Notes: a model not told the origin generated them from the sequence alone. Shown: positions 2,000 through 61,374, counted from the stretch's first letter. The stretch: 61,374 nucleotides of DNA from a virus (IMGVR_UViG_3300049893_001396:1-61374), one strand, 5' to 3'. Numbers and translations: made by a program.

Positions 2000-2074
2000 G
2001 GGCTAGTGGCCAACTGGAAAGGCACTTGGTTTTCATCCAAGTGAGTGTGGGTTCAAATCCCACCTAGCCTACCA
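2000..2074 (+). tRNA. tRNA-Glu(UUC)
   Basis: Acceptor GGGCTAG/CTAGCCT, D-arm GCC/GGC, anticodon stem CTTGG/CCAAG with loop TT-TTC-AT, T-arm GTGGG-TTCAAAT-CCCAC, encoded CCA; extended -10 TGTTATAAT upstream. Confidence 0.88.
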
Positions 2075-23703: not shown

Positions 23704-23915
23704 GATCTTCTCCTTTTATTTATTTCAGGTCCTCAGTCTGACCTGATATTTTCCCGCATCAAATAGCGGTTTAATCACGCTTGAACGAATACCGAAATGC
23801 CCGAGTGCGGACAGTGGGCGGACGGGGTATTCCGAAGATGTAGCGTGATTAAATCGCTACTTAACTAGGACGTAGCCGAGCTGCTAAACAGTGCCAGCTC
23901 GGCTACGGGCCCATA

Positions 23916-23993
23916 CTAATAATCGCAGTACGGGCAACCTCTCGGGTTGTTGTGGGTACACCCACAATCCCAACATGTTGTAGTGTCGTCCAT
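23916..23993 (-). CDS. 25-aa Zn-finger micropeptide MDDTTTCWDCGCTHNNPRGCPYCDY
   Basis: AAAGGAGGTG RBS; CxxCG...CPxC. Confidence 0.65.
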   Translation of the reverse strand: MDDTTTCWDCGCTHNNPRGCPYCDY

Positions 23994-24002
23994 GTGACAC
24001 CT

Positions 24003-24870
24003 CCTTTCATTTTTGGTATGCAGATACGTGGCTCTGAAATTGGTGCGGGCATCGGTTTATGTGTTCGCCGACTGCGCAGTCAATACAGCGTATCTACACT
24101 TTTTGTTCAACTTGGGAGCTAGTTAACCGTCCCGGGCGCTGATTCGCTAGTTCAGCGTTACCCCCAAGACACTCACACCTAGACCGGTTTGTCCGGCTTT
24201 GTGCTTTTCCACCGATATAAACGTGCACGACATATCAACCCCACCGGGGTCTATTTTTCGGATGGAATTCCACCATCTCTATCGCACCGCCCCCGAACCT
24301 ACCTATATCTATAAGCAGTTTTCGGGCACCGACTGAATGAATGAATTCAGTCGATGTATATCTTCCAAACATGCCCCGGCCCTTGGGTTCAACCTCTGTT
24401 TGACGTTACACAAGGTCACTTTTCAGCTTGCTTGTGTAACCGGGTTTACCGGGTTACATGTTGGGGGTCTTCAGAAGCTGAAATACTAGCTTCCGAAAAC
24501 TAGCACATACCCTTCATCGCGGCATGTGTGAGCCCCTATGACAGGCCATAACACCTGTTTTTAATAACACCCCCAGATACACGCGTGAAGCGTGTATAAC
24601 TAGGGTCGAACCCTGCCAGCGGGAAGCTGGCACGTTATGAGGTCATAACATAGCGTGCGGGGGTGTTACGTGTTGTGAGCTTGAAAAACCTGTTTCAAAT
24701 CGTTCACCGTTTCCACTCTGGAGTTATTCACCCACGGGTGCGGATTTCGATTTATTTTCAGTGGTCATTTATTCCCGCCTTGCCTATCCGCTTTTGGGAT
24801 ATGGTCAGGATGACCGCGCTTCAAGCTCACAATTTTTCAATTTACTTGGGGGCGATTTTCTTACCCCTGT
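24003..24870 (-). ncRNA. Candidate large structured non-coding RNA or leader
   Basis: Many nested stems, no minus-strand ORF of 60 aa or more, consensus promoter immediately upstream. Confidence 0.6.
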
Positions 24871-24876
24871 ACCTTA

Positions 24877-24904
24877 ATTATAACAGATTGATTTCTTTTG
24901 TCAA
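24877..24904 (-). promoter_or_regulatory. Sigma70 promoter, leftward (early)
   Basis: TTGACA-16bp-TATAAT with TG extension; a second TTGACA-17bp-TATTAT at ~24974-25002. Confidence 0.85.
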
Positions 24905-25500
24905 GCGGTAATTTTGTTACCGTCAATCCGTTATTTCAAGGTATGTAGTCAATTTAACCCCGACTACTCTACTATAATAGCAAGTGTACCTATGTTTGTC
25001 AACTATTATTTTTAATTATTTTACAGTTGTATACTATATATTAATAGGGTAATTGAGCGATAGACTAAATATCAATGTTTTTCGATATAATTTTGTCATA
25101 TCATAAACTTTCAATGATTGGGGGTATTGACACCGATATTCCTATATGTTTTTTGGGGATTTATGGTAGATTAGAATGGTTCTAATTTTAGTGTAATTTT
25201 TGTTAATTGCAATTTGGCTATTTTATTAATTAGATTAGTTGGATATAGTAGGCTATTTTTAATTATAGTAACGTAATGTTTTGTATTTTTATTTCTCCGA
25301 TACTTAACTAGAATCAGAGTTTTTCGATACATTTTGGCTTATATTATTTTAGTCATAATTATTTTTCTAGCGTATTCCGGGGTAGGGTGATTTTGCTGTT
25401 ATTGTAAGGAAAAACCGGGTTTACCGATTGTTTGTGATGTTTCGGAAATGTTGCTTGTTTTTTTTGTTCGCTGATTGTACGCGCGAAAGAAAAAGTATTT

Positions 25501-25575
<75 letters not shown>

Positions 25576-26014
25576 TTAGTAATAATATAATATGTAAGAT
25601 TTTAAATTAAAAAGAAAAAAGATAAACAAGATTTCAAGCCCTCTTCGGCTTGAAAATAGCGATACTTCCGATTAAAAACCGTAACACCCAGCAATTATAA
25701 TAGCACAATCACCTATTATATACTCATTCCTATTCCGTTTTTCTTGGGGATACCGATAATATACCAAATATCCTCAATAAACACAATCCACTCAATCCAG
25801 CAAAACCGACACTTGACAAATAACGATTGACAAGTAAAACAAAGTAGCACCCTGTTAAACACCCGTAAAATCAATTTCAAATCAATTTGATACCGTAACA
25901 CTGGTTATACTATATATGGCGTTTGTAGACCCGATAAACTGGCGATACTGTGAAACTTGGTGTTACTGGTTACACGATGTCATTGATTGTGTGACTTGGT
26001 GGTATAATTAACAC

Positions 26015-26043
26015 TTGACAATATACGCGCCTGACGTTATAAT
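26015..26043 (+). promoter_or_regulatory. Perfect sigma70 promoter, rightward
   Basis: TTGACA-17bp-TATAAT. Confidence 0.88.
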
Positions 26044-26070
26044 TAGATTATAAATTAATAGGGAGGTCAT

Positions 26071-26175
26071 ATGTTTGAGAAGTTTTTTGTAGTAGGATTT
26101 ACAATCATGGCAAGCGCCATGTTTGTAGGACTGATTGCCCTATACGTGCAGTCATTGCAGACGCTGGGACTATGA
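26071..26175 (+). CDS. 34-aa single-TM peptide MFEKFFVVGFTIMASAMFVGLIALYVQSLQTLGL
   Basis: GGGAGGT RBS directly downstream of the consensus promoter. Confidence 0.6.
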   Translation: MFEKFFVVGFTIMASAMFVGLIALYVQSLQTLGL

Positions 26176-26410
26176 CGCCCCAGCATTCTGAAGGTTTGTC
26201 GTAATGGGGTGATGAGGTCTAGGTGGAGGTGTCGACGGTGCACCCGGAAATACATGCAGACCCACGAAACACCGGAACACCCAGAAGTACTCCGAAGAAC
26301 ACAGTGGTACTAGCCTCAATAAGTAAATTTAAATCAAGCCATAAATTATACATTCCAGAAGTTAAATAATAGTATAGCTTAATACTTTACATTCATGGTA
26401 TAATGTGTAT

Positions 26411-56981: not shown

Positions 56982-57230
56982 ATGACAAATGCTTTGGGAC
57001 TGGCAGTAGTCGTAATGTTCGCTAAGGGCCAATTCGCCATTGCGGACAACACGCTTTCTATGTACCGTGCTGATAAATCAGCGGCACGGTATCATTATCA
57101 GTTACACACTGAGCTCGGCTGGCCACTCAGCCACTGCCCGGCTCGGGAGATTTTTGAGCTTCAGGAAAAACCGGCATTTATGCTCAATGATGCCGGACTT
57201 TTAGAATGGATAAAGGGAGGAAGTTTATAA
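56982..57230 (+). CDS. Hypothetical protein
   Basis: AAGGGG RBS. Confidence 0.55.
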   Translation: MTNALGLAVVVMFAKGQFAIADNTLSMYRADKSAARYHYQLHTELGWPLSHCPAREIFELQEKPAFMLNDAGLLEWIKGGSL

Positions 57231-57781
57231 TGAAAGAGCTTGAAATTTTAACAGCACTAGGTATAACCCGTGAGGATGTTCTTGATAAAGCTATAAATTA
57301 CTTAGTTGAATTGCCATCTGATTATAGAAGAGTGTCTGAAGAAGACTGGATTTCATCACCACTCTACAAGTCTTTGGATATCCGAATTGATAATGAAGTC
57401 AATTCGATGTTGAAAAAAATGAGTGTATCAATAAATGAAAGACTTGAAAAAATGATGCAAGAAAAAATAGACGAAACTTTCAATTTACCATTTCAAAGAA
57501 CTGATTGTTGGGGTGATCCAATAGGAAAAAAAACATCTATACGGGAAATAATTAAAGAAAGAGCCGATTCATATTTAAGTGAAAAGGTTGATAATGATGG
57601 CAAAAATTCTGACTATGGAAAATTTACAAGAGCAGAATTACTAGCTAGAAACATTATTGAAAATGAATTTAATGCACAAATTAAATGTGAAATAGAAAAT
57701 ATTGCACTACAACTAAAAAACAGAATTCCAAAAACTATTTCTGAAGAAATTTCTAAAGTTGTTCTTAATTATATCAAATAA
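57230..57781 (+). CDS. Hypothetical AT-rich helical protein
   Basis: GGAGG RBS; coupled. Confidence 0.7.
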   Translation: MKELEILTALGITREDVLDKAINYLVELPSDYRRVSEEDWISSPLYKSLDIRIDNEVNSMLKKMSVSINERLEKMMQEKIDETFNLPFQRTDCWGDPIGKKTSIREIIKERADSYLSEKVDNDGKNSDYGKFTRAELLARNIIENEFNAQIKCEIENIALQLKNRIPKTISEEISKVVLNYIK

Positions 57782-57793
57782 GGATGGGATGTT

Positions 57794-58534
57794 ATGACAG
57801 ATTTAATGATTCAAGGGCAAGATTTCACGGCACAGGAAATTGTTGCCGTGATGGAAAAAATGAGTGAGGTTGTGGAAAAGGCGCGGATTATCGCGCTGAA
57901 AGGCACTACCCCAGCGGATTGGACAGATCAGGGCGGTAAGCCCTATTTGACAATTTCGGGAAGTAACAAGGTGAAAAATATCTTCAAGGTAAGTGTCAGT
58001 GATTCAGGCTGGAACAAAACTGACCTTGAGGATGAAACCGGAAAGTATTATGTCGTTTCATTCCACGCGACTTTCACGTGGTCGCTTGGTTCTACGACAA
58101 TGACTGGGACTTGCTCAAGTCGTGACAAGTTCTTTGGAAAAGACAAAGAAATGTCCCAAGTGGACTTTACCAACGTCCTAAAAAAAGCAGAAACAAATTG
58201 CTATGGGCGTGGGATTAAGGCCCTTCTCGGGATTGGCAACATTGAGTGGGATGAACTCGAAAAGATTACTGGGTGGGGACGCGGGCAGGCCACAAAGGTG
58301 GAGTACCGTGATAAGACAGTGGTGTCCGACAAAATGAAGGAAATGCAGGGTGAGCTTAGCGGTCTTGTACTTGCGAAGGCTGGCAATGACGTCGAAGCGG
58401 CAAAGGGATTGCTTGAGCTTATGACTGAGTTCATTGGCAAGGACGGGAACAAGGTAAATGGTAAGCGCGAAATCGACAAACTGACCGAAAAACAGCTTGA
58501 AATGTGTCTGCGTAAACTAAAGGAAGGGAAATAA
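57794..58534 (+). CDS. Probable single-strand annealing recombinase (Rad52/Sak-like fold)
   Basis: KPYLTISG...GTCSSRDKFF...NVLKKAETN..GRGIKALLG; paired with an exonuclease. Confidence 0.6.
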   Translation: MTDLMIQGQDFTAQEIVAVMEKMSEVVEKARIIALKGTTPADWTDQGGKPYLTISGSNKVKNIFKVSVSDSGWNKTDLEDETGKYYVVSFHATFTWSLGSTTMTGTCSSRDKFFGKDKEMSQVDFTNVLKKAETNCYGRGIKALLGIGNIEWDELEKITGWGRGQATKVEYRDKTVVSDKMKEMQGELSGLVLAKAGNDVEAAKGLLELMTEFIGKDGNKVNGKREIDKLTEKQLEMCLRKLKEGK

Positions 58535-58535
58535 T

Positions 58536-59453
58536 ATGGAATTTCCTGATATCGTAGCTGGTATTGACCAGCTGAAGCGGTCCAAAATAAAAAAAGTACC
58601 TGCCATGGCCAATCGTGCATCCTATTTGGGTGACGATTGTGAGCGCAAGCTGTACTATCTCCGGGCAGAATGGGATAAGGCGGAAGAAACACCGCTTGAA
58701 CTGCAATACATATTTGAGGAAGGTCACCAGCAGGAAAAGGTCATAATTGCTGATATGATTGAGGCTGGATTTAAAATCATTCGGCAGCAGGAGCCGTTCA
58801 CCTGGGCAGATCACCAGATTACAGGCTCAATTGACGGCATGATCGTGATGCCTGATCAGTCGCTTGTCCCTTTCGATGCCAAGTCTATGTCACCGCACGT
58901 ATGGGACAAAGTTTCGGATGTGGAAAGTCTGAAGCGTTTCACGTGGACGAAAAAATACGTGGCGCAGATAATTCTGTACATGCTTATGTCGAATCAAGAG
59001 CGTGGAGTGCTCGTTTTCAAAAACAAATCAAATGGTCGGTTTAAACAGCTGAATTTCTTGCTGTCTGACTTCCTTGACCTGGCCGAGGAGCAACTACAAA
59101 AGGCTGACCGTGTGAATGTGGCTGTGGCCACCAAAACACCACCTGACAGGCTGGAAGAACCAGACCATTGCCGTATGTGCCAATTCCGGCTACATTGCCT
59201 ACCAGATCAAAATTTTGACCATCTGGAATTTATCGACAATGAAGAGCTGGTGGCGCTTTTGGAGAAAAAAGAACAGCTTAAGCCATACCGGGATCAATAC
59301 GACGATATTGATGATCAGATCAAAGAACAGATAAAGGGCCGTGAATTTGTCTGTGGCAATTATCATATTTCTGGAAAGTGGATAGAAAAAAAAGAATCGG
59401 TAGTTAGGGCTTCTAAGTATTGGAAGTCAGCAATTAAAAAGATCGGAGAATAA
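58536..59453 (+). CDS. Cas4-like PD-(D/E)XK exonuclease
   Basis: RASYLG..CERKLYY, GSIDG, FDAKS, QIILYM, CRMCQFRLHC. Confidence 0.85.
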   Translation: MEFPDIVAGIDQLKRSKIKKVPAMANRASYLGDDCERKLYYLRAEWDKAEETPLELQYIFEEGHQQEKVIIADMIEAGFKIIRQQEPFTWADHQITGSIDGMIVMPDQSLVPFDAKSMSPHVWDKVSDVESLKRFTWTKKYVAQIILYMLMSNQERGVLVFKNKSNGRFKQLNFLLSDFLDLAEEQLQKADRVNVAVATKTPPDRLEEPDHCRMCQFRLHCLPDQNFDHLEFIDNEELVALLEKKEQLKPYRDQYDDIDDQIKEQIKGREFVCGNYHISGKWIEKKESVVRASKYWKSAIKKIGE

Positions 59454-59455
59454 AC

Positions 59456-60052
59456 ATGATAATGAACGATAAAGCACAGGAAGCATTTCAGAGATACGTT
59501 GAGACAGAAAAAAACATTTCATTGATGCAAAATACTGAAAAGACCTCCGAAATGATGAGAGAATTGATCGACTGGATAAATTATCATAACCGTGCGGAAA
59601 TGATCGACGTAACGCAGGTGAAGATTAATTTCGGTCAGCTTTTATCAGGGTTCCCAACTGAGGCGATTGCAGAGGCGCTAATGTCCCGCATGCCGGAGAA
59701 ACAGGATCAGGACCAGGATCAAGTTTCTGAACTGGAATGGTCAGAAGTGACTGATGAACCTGTTGCGCTTTGCAAGTGCCGACACATGCCAGTGATTCAT
59801 TGTGAAGTGGATGATTTCAATCATCCAGAGGATTCAAAAATATTTTACGCAGAATGTAAAACCTGTGGTATTCTGGTAAATGGGAATAGCGAGACTGACG
59901 CGGCCCAAAAATGGAATTTAAAACTGAAGGGAGAAATGAAAGATGATCAAACAAGTGGGTACGGGGATTTACAAGGCGTTTGCGGGAAAATCGAATCCGA
60001 AGCCAGTTTTACAGAATCCGGGGATCAAGGTGACGGTACAGCAAAAGGTTGA
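59456..60052 (+). CDS. Protein with Lar-like (restriction alleviation) Zn domain
   Basis: CKC...ECKTCG...AAQKWN. Confidence 0.55.
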   Translation: MIMNDKAQEAFQRYVETEKNISLMQNTEKTSEMMRELIDWINYHNRAEMIDVTQVKINFGQLLSGFPTEAIAEALMSRMPEKQDQDQDQVSELEWSEVTDEPVALCKCRHMPVIHCEVDDFNHPEDSKIFYAECKTCGILVNGNSETDAAQKWNLKLKGEMKDDQTSGYGDLQGVCGKIESEASFTESGDQGDGTAKG

Positions 60053-60126
60053 CCCTGGAATTCTCAATCACTTGAGAAGTAAGGTACTATAGCACAGAAG
60101 CGCCCGGAAACGGGCGCTATTACTTT

Positions 60127-60408
60127 ATGGGGGTCAGTATGGGAGAAAAAGAAGATATCGAAAAAATCATTTCATGCGTGCGGAAGATTATGGGAATGAA
60201 TGAAGATATCAGCAAAGGGGTTAAAATTTCGATTTCAGGCAATCCACCAGAAAAGCGCAACCCGAATGTTCGGTGGGCCGGGAAAGTTGATTGGGTGATG
60301 AATTATGACCGACTAGTGACAACGGTGTGCGGTGTGACGCGGCCAAGGTGCGTGATGCCGGCCACAAGTGATGAGCGCAATTGTCCGTATTGCTTCAAAG
60401 CGTATTAG
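60127..60408 (+). CDS. Hypothetical Cys-containing protein
   Basis: ORF with C-terminal CPYC. Confidence 0.45.
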   Translation: MGVSMGEKEDIEKIISCVRKIMGMNEDISKGVKISISGNPPEKRNPNVRWAGKVDWVMNYDRLVTTVCGVTRPRCVMPATSDERNCPYCFKAY

Positions 60409-60422
60409 TGGTATACTGAATA

Positions 60423-60623
60423 TTGTTATAACCGGGGCGGCAGTCAGATTGCCCCGTGGTCACTGAAAAGACTGCCATCAGTGATAACGACCCGGAACAC
60501 CTCTCGCAGAAGTGCACCAGTCCGGGTATTAATGCCGGGCCTATGCACTCCGCACTTGGCCCGGCTCCAATCTCCAATTACCCGCCACGCCTCTGATTCA
60601 AGCGCATTTTGGGCGGGTTTTTT
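60423..60623 (+). ncRNA. Stand-alone sRNA with two kissing-loop pairs and an intrinsic terminator
   Basis: Promoter TTGCTT-16-TATACT (60390-60417), four hairpins with complementary loops, terminator ACCCGCC/GGCGGGT-TTTTT. Confidence 0.65.
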
Positions 60624-60630
60624 ATTTTAT

Positions 60631-60999
60631 TTATACTTTAGATTTACCTTCTACGCCACGCTTTTCACGATCAATTTTTCGCTTCATCAACCACAATAAT
60701 GCTTCATCAAGTTTTGTTATTACTACTGCGTTTTCACGTGAAGGAAATTCAGCATTAAATTTCTCAATTATTATTTTTGCAGTCTCTATCAGTGTATCGA
60801 CCTGACATCCATTAATACCGACTTCTTTGATCGGGCCGTTTTGCAATTTAAAACTAATACAATTCATTTTTTCATTAATATTTATCGGAAGTTCATCTCT
60901 CATTTTGTCAAAATCATCCCTCGACATATCTGTTGGTTTATCTCGAACAACTTTATAACCACCAATTTCTTCAATGCCTTCTAATGTTCTTAATGCCAT
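60631..60999 (-). CDS. tad1: Tad1-family anti-defence nucleotide sponge
   Basis: LQNGPIKEVGINGC...FPSRENAVVITKLDEALLWLMKR...REKRGVEG matches the recalled Tad1 C-terminal core. Confidence 0.75.
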   Translation of the reverse strand: MALRTLEGIEEIGGYKVVRDKPTDMSRDDFDKMRDELPININEKMNCISFKLQNGPIKEVGINGCQVDTLIETAKIIIEKFNAEFPSRENAVVITKLDEALLWLMKRKIDREKRGVEGKSKV

Positions 61000-61374
61000 T
61001 ATATATTCCTTTTTTTATTTTTATTGTCTGCCAGCCTTGTTATGCCAGGGATCGATCACACTGGACAGACTGACAGGGCTTACACTCAAATCATACCATA
61101 TCGTCCACATGGACGAAATGGTTTTATTATGAAAGTTCTAATAATTTTAATAAAAAATATAGCGTAACTACAGCAAAAATTATCTTAAATTCTAATAAAT
61201 CCTAATAATTCTTATTTTACTTTTGAGCCTAAAAGTAAAATAAGAAAATCCATATTTTACTTTCAACACGATAAATTCCTTATTTGACTGGATCAATCTT
61301 TTTGTGATGGGCAAAAGTGTTTGACACTTATATATTGTAAGAATATACTAATATATATCTAAACTATATATAAA

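What the first reader, a model, noticed from the sequence alone, without database searches (positions are those of the whole stretch)
60390..60623. Stand-alone ~200-nt sRNA with two tandem kissing-loop modules next to an anti-defence gene
Seen: promoter, then H1 (CGGGGC/GCCCCG) whose loop GGCAGTC (60439-45) is the exact complement of GACTGCC (60470-76) in the loop of H2 (TCACTGA/TCAGTGA). TTGTTA/TAACGA can close both into a three-way junction with purine-riboswitch-like topology but without its core. H3 (ACCCGGA/TCCGGGT) loop AAGTGCA (60510-16) complements both TGCACT and GCACTT in the loop of H4 (GCCGGGCC/GGCCCGGC). A terminator follows with no downstream sense gene. Inference: a compact folded trans-acting RNA such as an antitoxin mimic, protein decoy, ligand sponge, ribozyme or multimerising RNA. 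I do not recognise the class.
Basis: partly seen in the sequence, partly recalled or inferred. Interest (0 to 1): 0.75.

Follow-up and report, generated by a model that had tools for sequence, protein, structure and literature searches.

The report
Phage decoy RNA against AbiF toxin
A phage small RNA carries two copies of the hairpin that bacteria use to keep their AbiF suicide nuclease switched off, so it most likely disarms that defence during infection.

Summary
Two of the five hairpins match Rfam abiF RNA (RF03085) over all 37 model positions: H3 at 60491-60527 (27.3 bits) and the terminator hairpin at 60581-60618 (27.2 bits). Both are below the 37-bit cut-off. Both keep all 9 base pairs and the invariant A20 and A26 of 40 AbiF-adjacent bacterial motifs.

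abiF RNA is the RNA antitoxin of the AbiF HEPN toxin (papers). The window has no AbiF gene, and the neighbouring gene is a Tad1 anti-Thoeris homologue.

Among capped pattern hits, AbiF lies in the stored locus for 81 of 121 genomic copies but only 9 of 119 viral copies. Two complete cultured phage genomes carry the motif without AbiF.

Best reading (0.55): an orphan antitoxin decoy against host AbiF.

The H3/H4 "kissing" is largely explained by abiF inner structure. The H1/H2 7-nt complement is real (shuffle p 0.0016) but untested, because no homologue of the 5' domain was found. No transcript data exist.

The parts
60390..60417 (+). Promoter-like site: weak -35 (TTGCTT, 60390-95), 16-nt spacer, extended -10 (TGgTATACT, 60409-17). 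The expected start is near 60423-25. It overlaps the 3' end of the upstream 93-aa ORF.
   Evidence: Read by eye. The consensus scan did not list it because the -35 matches only 3 of 6. The two-motif phage RNA in L103 has the same TGg + -10 layout.
60423..60490 (+). 5' domain: P1 (60423-28/60485-90) closing H1 (60433-38/60451-56, or slipped H1' 60439-44/60448-53) and H2 (60460-66/60478-84). Loop heptamers 60439-45 and 60470-76 are exact complements. Function unknown.
Evidence: (shuffle p 0.0016). No Rfam match. No homologue.
   Evidence: Rfam RF03085, 27.3 bits (cut-off 37), E 0.0027, model positions 1-37 without indel. All 9 pairs kept, three of them by changes on both sides; A20 and A26 kept. 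The same stem subtype occurs in 4 viral contigs.
60534..60565 (+). Spacer hairpin H4: 8-bp GC stem with an inner 3-bp helix 60544-46/60552-54.
   Evidence: outer pairs p 0.99-1.0; inner pairs 0.89-1.0. No family match. The two-motif RNA in L103 also has a structured spacer.
60581..60623 (+). abiF-type hairpin 2, doubling as the intrinsic terminator: outer stem 60581-86/60612-17, bulged A 60587, inner stem 60588-90/60602-04, 11-nt loop 60591-601, 7-nt internal loop 60605-11 (one base longer than the model), T-run 60618-23.
   Evidence: Rfam RF03085, 27.2 bits, E 0.025 in a 1.3-kb search and 1.2 in the whole-window search. Its first 25 nt are identical to a hairpin in the otherwise unrelated-looking viral contig L001 (higher G+C, different genes by eye), which scores 39.1 bits, above the cut-off.
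60631..60999 (-). Convergent neighbour gene (122 aa), a Tad1 / Acb2-Tad1 family homologue, i.e. a cyclic-nucleotide sponge type anti-defence protein.
   Evidence: PDB phmmer: Thoeris anti-defense 1, 8kbb, E 2e-14. Pfam Acb2_Tad1_hairpin 18.6 bits, below the cut-off of 27. phrog_2428 E 3e-19. 18 relatives in viral contigs lack the RNA.
60127..60408 (+). Upstream 93-aa Cys-rich ORF of no known family. Its stop codon lies inside the promoter-like site.
   Evidence: No relatives found.

Best explanation
The region encodes a phage RNA of about 195 nt. It carries two hairpins of the abiF type (Rfam RF03085), the fold that serves as the RNA antitoxin of the AbiF (Abi_2, HEPN RNase) type III toxin-antitoxin and abortive-infection system. 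The phage has no AbiF gene, so this is an orphan antitoxin.

Proposed mechanism:
1. In an AbiF-bearing host, infection would normally free AbiF from its own ncRNA. How that happens is not known from what I read.
2. The phage transcribes its own two-motif RNA from an extended -10 promoter.
3. Each motif occupies one AbiF protomer of the dimer and blocks the HEPN site, as the cognate ncRNA does.
4. Abortive infection is suppressed.
5. The second motif also terminates the transcript.

Shown here: the motif match, structure and conserved bases; absence of AbiF in the window; an anti-defence neighbour; and that phage copies of this motif usually lack AbiF. Inferred: transcription, AbiF binding, and the anti-defence effect. 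The 5' three-way-junction domain is not explained by this reading.
For: (1) Two full-length RF03085 matches lie 54 nt apart on one strand: 27.3 bits, E 0.0027, and 27.2 bits, E 0.025. By my own arithmetic on those E-values (divide by 4227 families, scale to 61 kb and both strands), each is about 3e-4 for this one family.

(2) In an alignment with 40 distinct AbiF-adjacent bacterial motifs and 7 other viral ones, all 49 sequences keep all 9 pairs. H3 keeps three pairs through changes on both sides. Both window motifs carry A20 and A26, which are invariant in 40 of 40 AbiF-adjacent motifs and were not fixed by my pattern.

(3) A structural descriptor for the motif hits the window 3 times, including these two, against a mean of 0.34 in 50 shuffles.

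(4) The 25-nt 5' half of the terminator hairpin is identical in the otherwise unrelated-looking viral contig L001. There it scores 39.1 bits (above the cut-off), sits behind its own promoter-like site, and is antisense to all flanking genes. L001's motif differs by 1 nt from an AbiF-adjacent motif in a Sulfuricellaceae MAG (L126).

(5) abiF RNA is an antitoxin that binds AbiF and acts in trans, and RCd22 has two motifs (10.1101/2025.04.15.648962: abstract, sections 6 and 12 part 1). A PbAbiF dimer binds one ncRNA per monomer (PMC12737573 passages).

(6) The window has no AbiF: an HMM built from 48 AbiF candidates gives a best six-frame hit of E 0.2. Two of those candidates were checked against Pfam and are Abi_2 at about E 1e-53.

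(7) Pattern hits. Of 121 genomic copies, 66 have AbiF directly downstream and 15 more have it elsewhere in the locus. Of 119 viral copies, the figures are 3 and 6, and 100 have none. For unique contexts the directly-downstream counts are 62 of 116 genomic against 3 of 91 viral. Five large ORFs just downstream of viral orphans are integrases, a terminase, a methylase or of no family.

(8) The complete genomes of Aeromonas phage PZL-Ah8 and Salicola phage CGphi29 each hold one abiF RNA at 50.1 bits and no Abi_2.

(9) Another viral contig (L103) has the same design: own extended -10, two motifs (52.9 and 35.6 bits), a terminator, and no Abi_2 in the record.

(10) The neighbour gene is a Tad1 homologue.
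Against: - Both window motifs score about 10 bits below Rfam's gathering cut-off. In the whole-window E-value search only the terminator hairpin was listed (E 1.2) and H3 was not.
- No transcript evidence: the only run holding the sequence is DNA.
- The promoter is called by eye only, and the consensus scan does not list it. The hairpins could simply end the upstream operon.
- The host is unknown, so it is not shown that it has AbiF. The H3 stem subtype was not found in 401 genomes of the order of the L126 genome and has so far been seen only in viral contigs.
- The viral-versus-genome contrast rests on the first 118-120 rows of capped scans with a pattern that fixes 21 bases. Viral loci are fragments of uneven length. 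My strict adjacency rule missed some true neighbours, which is why I also give the looser counts.
- In crude ORF maps, 29 of 78 viral orphans follow a co-directional gene and could act as plain terminators. 30 of 78 fell inside ORFs that are probably spurious.
- About a third of the RNA, the 5' domain, has no role in this model.
- No AbiF binding was tested.
Confidence: 0.55

Rival explanations
1. The hairpins are only transcription terminators, attenuators or RNA-stability elements for the upstream operon. They would have been picked up from AbiF loci by recombination and have no interaction with AbiF.
For: In bacterial loci the motif is itself followed by a T-run (57 of 62 AbiF-adjacent unique contexts). 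It terminates most transcription in C. difficile (10.1101/2025.04.15.648962, section 6). The window's second motif has a run of six T. The upstream genes 57206-60408 are co-directional. 29 of 78 viral orphans follow a co-directional ORF.
Against: - A terminator needs no conserved loop, yet CCTCT, A20 and A26 are kept in both window copies.
- H3 has no T-run after it.
- L001 and L103 copies are antisense to, or separate from, all flanking genes and have their own promoter-like sites.
- 27 of 78 viral orphans have no run of four or more T within 12 nt.
Confidence: 0.15
2. The RNA is the antitoxin or cofactor of a phage-borne toxin that I did not recognise. Alternatively it is the remnant of a phage-carried AbiF system whose toxin gene was lost. 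Its role would then be phage-phage exclusion or none at all.
For: AbiF systems do occur on prophages (10.1101/2025.04.15.648962, abstract and section 12). 9 of 119 viral motif copies have AbiF in the locus. Several neighbouring ORFs have no family.
Against: - No Abi_2-like ORF in six frames of the 61-kb window.
- In real systems the toxin gene starts 7-40 nt downstream on the same strand. Here a T-run and a convergent Tad1-like gene follow.
- Both motifs and the promoter-like site are intact, which argues against decay.
Confidence: 0.12
3. One reading: a compact RNA of a new class built from two kissing-loop modules. It would act through its tertiary fold as a ligand sponge, ribozyme or multimeriser, and the abiF resemblance would be incidental.
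For: The exact 7-nt H1/H2 loop complement has shuffle p 0.0016. The MFE contains the three-way junction P1/H1-variant/H2. The fold z-score is -2.57.
Against: - Two independent full-length abiF matches with kept invariants.
- The H3/H4 complement is only 6 nt (p 0.028) and overlaps abiF inner structure.
- The H1 loop is predicted to be self-paired.
- No riboswitch or ribozyme family match.
- No homologues to show covariation.
Confidence: 0.08
4. Not a functional RNA: chance hairpins in an intergenic spacer, never made as a discrete transcript.
For: No expression data. No homologue of the whole element. Both scores are below the family cut-off.
Against: My rescaled single-family E-values are about 3e-4 for each of two adjacent hits. 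One half-hairpin is identical over 25 nt to a motif that passes the cut-off in another phage contig.
Confidence: 0.05

Closest known systems
abiF RNA / AbiFr (Rfam RF03085), the ncRNA antitoxin of AbiF. The PbAbiF-ncRNA structure 8VZ6 is cited in PMC12737573.
   Same: 37-nt architecture: 6-bp outer stem, bulged A, 3-bp inner stem, 11-nt loop starting CUCU, 3' internal loop starting CA, trailing U. Often followed by a U-run.
   Different: Both window copies score 27 bits against a cut-off of 37. No abiF gene follows. One copy has a 7-nt internal loop. The other has an outer-stem subtype seen so far only in viral contigs.
RCd22 of the C. difficile phi027 prophage (10.1101/2025.04.15.648962)
   Same: One small transcript with its own promoter, two abiF motifs and a terminator. 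It acts in trans on AbiF by direct binding.
   Different: RCd22 sits directly upstream of, and is co-transcribed with, its abiF gene. Its terminator is a separate hairpin. It has no 5' three-way-junction domain.
pseudo-ToxI of phage PhiTE, which escapes ToxIN (PMC3475682; I saw the search listing and abstract start only, and recall the rest)
   Same: A phage-encoded copy of a type III RNA antitoxin that neutralises the host toxin and suppresses abortive infection. This is the same logic as proposed here.
   Different: A different toxin family (ToxN, not a HEPN AbiF) and a different RNA fold (36-nt pseudoknot repeats). It was shown by experiment, whereas this case is inferred.
sk1 cos-site hairpin that inhibits AbiF (reported in PMC13064643, citing Rince 2000 and Zilberzwige-Tal 2025)
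   Same: A phage-borne hairpin that counteracts AbiF.
   Different: It is said not to resemble the AbiF ncRNA, whereas the window's hairpins do.
abiF sRNA annotated in cyanophage S-CREM1 (PMC9964418)
   Same: A bona fide RF03085 hit in a lytic phage genome (51.6 bits).
   Different: Single motif. The passages I read propose no function.
Purine-riboswitch-type three-way junction with loop-loop contact
   Same: Only the topology of the 5' domain: P1 plus two similar-length hairpins with complementary loops.
   Different: No Rfam match. Junctions of 4, 3 and 0 nt with no conserved core. H1 is predicted to fold differently.

Membership tests
abiF RNA (Rfam RF03085) | Covariance-model score at or above the gathering cut-off (37 bits) | tested here: not met
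   H3 27.3 bits. Terminator hairpin 27.2 bits. The related L001 hairpin, identical over the first 25 nt, scores 39.1.
abiF RNA (Rfam RF03085) | Secondary structure: 6-bp stem, 1-nt bulge, 3-bp stem, 11-nt loop, 6-nt 3' internal loop | tested here: met
   H3 matches exactly without indel. The terminator hairpin has one extra base in the internal loop. All 9 pairs are standard in both. ViennaRNA alone gives the inner 3-bp stems only p 0.16-0.19.
abiF RNA (Rfam RF03085) | Conserved nucleotides (CCUCU at inner stem and loop, A at loop position 10, A at second position of the internal loop, trailing U) | tested here: met
   Both copies carry them. A20 and A26 are invariant in 40 of 40 AbiF-adjacent motifs and were free in the search pattern.
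abiF RNA (Rfam RF03085) | Lies directly upstream of an abiF (Pfam Abi_2) gene | tested here: not met
   No Abi_2-like ORF in six frames of the window (best E 0.2). A convergent Tad1-like gene follows. This failure is what makes it an orphan.
Type III antitoxin RNA / antitoxin mimic | Binds and neutralises the cognate toxin in trans | not testable with these tools
   No RNA-protein modelling or assay is available here. Shown for RCd22 and PbAbiFr in the literature.
Stand-alone sRNA gene | Own promoter, discrete transcript, intrinsic terminator | tested here: inconclusive
   Extended -10 and a hairpin with a run of six T are seen by eye. Neither is listed by the consensus scan. No RNA run is available.
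Kissing-loop three-way-junction RNA (purine-riboswitch-like) | Loop-loop pairs maintained by covariation in homologues; conserved junction core | tested here: inconclusive
   No homologue of the 5' domain was found. No Rfam match. H1's loop is predicted to be self-paired.
Tad1 / Acb2-Tad1 sponge (neighbour gene) | Sequence homology to solved Tad1 proteins | tested here: met
   phmmer against PDB: 8kbb E 2e-14, residues 51-121. The Pfam hairpin domain scores 18.6 bits, below its cut-off of 27.

The most novel reading that the evidence does not exclude
The transcript is a polyvalent anti-defence RNA. Two AbiF-antitoxin mimics would be fused to a 5' three-way-junction and kissing-loop domain that is itself a second, so far unknown decoy or aptamer. 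That domain could target another RNA-binding defence nuclease or an immune signalling nucleotide, which would complement the Tad1 sponge encoded next door. More broadly, orphan abiF hairpins would be a widespread RNA-based counter-defence of phages across phyla that has not been described as such.
Probability: 0.12. Interest if true: 0.85.

Novelty: new variant of a known kind. Interest (0 to 1): 0.6.

Why it matters
AbiF is a widespread HEPN abortive-infection toxin and the proposed ancestor of Cas13. Its RNA antitoxin was characterised only in 2025.

If phages commonly carry orphan copies of that antitoxin, it would be a natural, RNA-only inhibitor class for AbiF. In this sample, only 9 of 119 viral copies had AbiF in the locus, against 81 of 121 genomic copies. 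The class would be analogous to pseudo-ToxI.

It would also give a simple sequence signature for mapping which phages face AbiF hosts and for finding anti-defence islands; here the RNA lies next to Tad1. The hypothesis is directly testable by co-expression in E. coli.

I found no paper in the searchable library that proposes this role for phage abiF motifs. The key paper, Zilberzwige-Tal 2025, was not readable and supplements were closed, so priority cannot be excluded.

Tried and rejected
- **Near relatives of the region.** None in phages, plasmids or E. coli genomes. The one search hits are a 100-nt AT-rich match to Bacillus phages inside the Tad1-like gene and are not relevant.
- **Whole genome.** None is held for the window.
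- **Relatives of the 93-aa ORF.** None in viral contigs. One metagenome hit (L262) shares only 41 nt at the ORF start and has no motif.
- **Cas4-like exonuclease relatives.** None in viral contigs.
- **Tad1-like relatives.** 18 loci, none with the RNA or a convincing abiF-like hairpin next to the gene.
- **Stem-anchored pattern for the 5' domain.** 0 hits in viral contigs and in metagenome contigs.
- **blastn and nhmmer of the 5' domain and the H4 linker against 261 fetched loci.** Nothing.
- **Antisense targets of the sRNA within the window.** Only chance-level matches of 9-12 nt.
- **Sequencing runs.** No RNA holder is listed; one DNA run holds the stretch and may be its source.
- **H3 stem subtype in bacteria.** 0 of 401 genomes of one order.
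- **Orientation census of viral orphans by crude ORF maps.** Inconclusive, because 30 of 78 fell inside ORFs that are probably spurious.
- **Zilberzwige-Tal 2025.** Not held.
- **Weak Rfam hits.** isrK, the miRNA families (mir-2387, MIR8675), twister-P5 and the other weak hits were rejected as far below their cut-offs.
- **Short ORFs inside the region.** Lengths 46, 72 and 60 aa. Not pursued: no family evidence, and they overlap the structured hairpins.

Full report
**What is in the sequence**

The window is a phage-like contig of 61 kb with 46.5% G+C. It has no close relative in the phage, plasmid or E. coli collections, and no whole genome is held for it. Only one run, a DNA run labelled freshwater sediment metagenome, holds it.

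Between the 93-aa ORF 60127-60408 (+) and the convergent gene 60631-60999 (-) lie about 220 nt with no convincing ORF.
- H1 at 60433-38/60451-56.
- H2 at 60460-66/60478-84.
- Exact 7-nt complementary loop segments at 60439-45 and 60470-76.
- H3 at 60490-96/60521-27.
- H4 at 60534-41/60558-65.
- A GC-rich hairpin followed by six T at 60618-23.

The closing helix P1 is at 60423-28/60485-90. The promoter-like site is an extended -10 (60409-17) with a poor -35. The consensus scan lists neither it nor the terminator, because both fall outside its rules. The 211-nt stretch folds better than shuffles (z = -2.57).

**Identity of the 3' half**

An E-value Rfam scan of 1.3 kb gave one notable match. The terminator hairpin 60581-60618 matches abiF RNA (RF03085) over all 37 model positions, at 27.2 bits and E 0.025. 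A scan of 60420-60575 alone gave the same family for H3, 60491-60527, at 27.3 bits and E 0.0027, full length with no indel.

Both scores are under the 37-bit gathering cut-off. In the whole-window E-value scan only the terminator hairpin is listed (E 1.2), and H3 is lost. Those E-values count 4227 families. Rescaled to this one family over the whole window (my arithmetic), each is about 3e-4, and the two lie 54 nt apart on the same strand.

A simple structural descriptor of the motif hits the window three times: these two and 26176-26211. The mean is 0.34 hits in 50 shuffles.

The first 25 nt of the terminator hairpin occur identically in one viral contig, L001, which by eye has higher G+C and different genes. 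There the hairpin scores 39.1 bits, above the cut-off. It stands behind a promoter-like TTGATT-17-TATACT site and is antisense to every flanking gene.

**Motif anatomy**

I aligned the following sequences and counted pairs in register from both ends, because MAFFT misplaced the one-base insertion of the terminator hairpin:
- the two window hairpins;
- L001;
- the two L103 hairpins;
- four viral hairpins with the same outer-stem subtype as H3 (L258-L261);
- 40 distinct motifs that sit directly upstream of AbiF genes in bacterial genomes.

All 49 sequences keep all 9 pairs. H3 keeps outer pairs 5 and 6 and inner pair 8 through changes on both sides. Positions 20 and 26 are A in 40 of 40 AbiF-adjacent motifs, were not fixed by my search pattern, and are A in both window hairpins.

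This changes the reading of H3. Its '24-nt loop' is really an inner 3-bp helix, an 11-nt loop and a 6-nt internal loop. The longest perfect H3/H4 complement is 6 nt, reached in 2.8% of shuffles.

**What abiF RNA is**

From the papers I could read:
- The motif marks a ncRNA that neutralises the AbiF (Abi_2, HEPN RNase) toxin by direct binding, in cis and in trans, like a type III antitoxin. The C. difficile RNA RCd22 has two motifs on one transcript of about 100-130 nt, with its own promoter and terminator (10.1101/2025.04.15.648962: abstract, sections 6 and 12 part 1).
- The Prevotellaceae AbiF dimer binds one ncRNA per monomer, and AbiF is also said to process its ncRNA (PMC12737573 passages).
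- An abiF sRNA has been annotated in cyanophage S-CREM1 without a proposed function (PMC9964418 and PMC12197685 passages).
- The primary paper, Zilberzwige-Tal 2025, is not held, and supplements are closed.

In five searches I found no paper that proposes phage orphan abiF RNAs as counter-defence.

**Orphan status and the wider pattern**

A pattern fixing 21 bases of the motif found at least 118 viral contigs and at least 120 genome contigs from many phyla.

In genomes the motif is typically followed, 7-40 nt downstream, by an ORF of about 300 aa. Of 48 such ORFs, 47 form one BLAST cluster. The two I checked are Pfam Abi_2 at about E 1e-53.

With an HMM built from the 48 ORFs I counted AbiF around each motif copy:

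| Set | Copies | AbiF directly downstream | AbiF elsewhere in locus | No AbiF in locus | Too little sequence downstream |
|---|---|---|---|---|---|
| Genomic | 121 | 66 | 15 | 35 | 5 |
| Viral | 119 | 3 | 6 | 100 | 10 |

Some of the 'elsewhere' cases are really adjacent and were missed by my start-coordinate rule. After removing duplicate contexts, the directly-downstream counts are 62 of 116 genomic and 3 of 91 viral.

Further points:
- The window has no AbiF-like frame; the best hit is E 0.2.
- Of 78 unique viral orphan motifs, 11 are identical and 43 are within 2 mismatches of an AbiF-adjacent bacterial motif.
- The ORFs that follow five viral orphans are integrases, a terminase, a methylase or of unknown family.
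- Two complete cultured phage genomes, Aeromonas phage PZL-Ah8 (T7-like) and Salicola phage CGphi29, each contain one abiF RNA at 50.1 bits in an unannotated gap and no Abi_2. In PZL-Ah8 the motif follows what looks by eye like a phage-polymerase promoter.
- A viral contig, L103, shows the same design as the window: an extended -10, two motifs 91 nt apart (52.9 and 35.6 bits), a T-run, flanking genes on the other strand, and no Abi_2 in the 35-kb record.

**Neighbourhood**

The convergent gene is a Tad1 homologue (PDB 8kbb, E 2e-14; Pfam below cut-off; phrog_2428). The RNA therefore lies beside a recognised anti-defence gene. However, 18 relatives of that gene elsewhere lack the RNA, so the two are not a conserved pair.

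**The 5' domain**

P1/H1/H2 forms a three-way junction in the MFE. The 7-nt loop-loop complement is unlikely for a given pair of loops (0.16% of shuffles), but it was picked post hoc.

I found no Rfam match and no homologue. The covariation test could therefore not be done, and the function of this third of the RNA is open.

**Verdict**

The element is best read as a phage-encoded, probably stand-alone RNA with two abiF-type antitoxin hairpins and no toxin gene. That makes it a likely decoy against host AbiF abortive infection (0.55).

Rival readings:
- plain terminator or stability hairpins (0.15);
- antitoxin of an unseen phage toxin, or a remnant of a lost AbiF system (0.12);
- a new kissing-loop RNA class (0.08);
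- not a functional RNA (0.05).

It does not pass Rfam's cut-off and fails the 'upstream of abiF' criterion, so I file it as abiF-like and orphan rather than as a regular family member. It is a new variant of a known kind: RNA-antitoxin mimicry is known for ToxIN, and the motif family is known. The composite architecture and the apparent frequency of orphan copies in phages may be new.

Noticed in passing
window 23750-26400: About 2.6 kb between the minus-strand and plus-strand gene blocks has no ORF longer than 82 aa. It holds several short direct and inverted repeat families. A hairpin at 26176-26211 fits my loose abiF descriptor (with G-U pairs and a TTCT loop start) but is not listed by Rfam.
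   Followed up: partly
window 61000-61374: AT-rich non-coding end of the window. It has a perfect 14-nt-arm palindrome (61211-24 / 61231-44) and a near-consensus promoter-like site, TTGACA-17-TATACT, at 61321-49 on the + strand, matching 11 of 12.
   Followed up: no
window 60127-60408 (+): A 93-aa Cys-rich ORF with no Pfam or PHROG family and no relatives found. A metagenome contig (L262) shares only 41 nt at 83% identity around its start.
   Followed up: partly
window 57206-60052 (+): Upstream genes include a Cas4-domain/PD-(D/E)XK exonuclease (58536-59453, phrog_1990 E 5e-27) and a 198-aa protein with a weak Lar-like restriction-alleviation match (phrog_599, E 0.0016). This may extend an anti-defence or recombination module.
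   Followed up: no
L268 2471-2560 (Aeromonas phage PZL-Ah8) and L269 2441-2570 (Salicola phage CGphi29): Two different cultured phages carry an identical 36-nt abiF motif and no Abi_2 gene. In the T7-like phage it lies between the portal and scaffold genes, just downstream of a sequence that looks by eye like a phage-RNA-polymerase promoter.
   Followed up: partly
L103 9200-9460: A viral contig with a stand-alone two-motif abiF RNA (own extended -10, 91-nt structured spacer, terminator) between genes on the opposite strand. It is the closest architectural parallel to the window's RNA.
   Followed up: yes
window 2000-2074 (+): A tRNA-Glu (anticodon TTC) gene, the only Rfam match above its cut-off in the window.
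   Followed up: no
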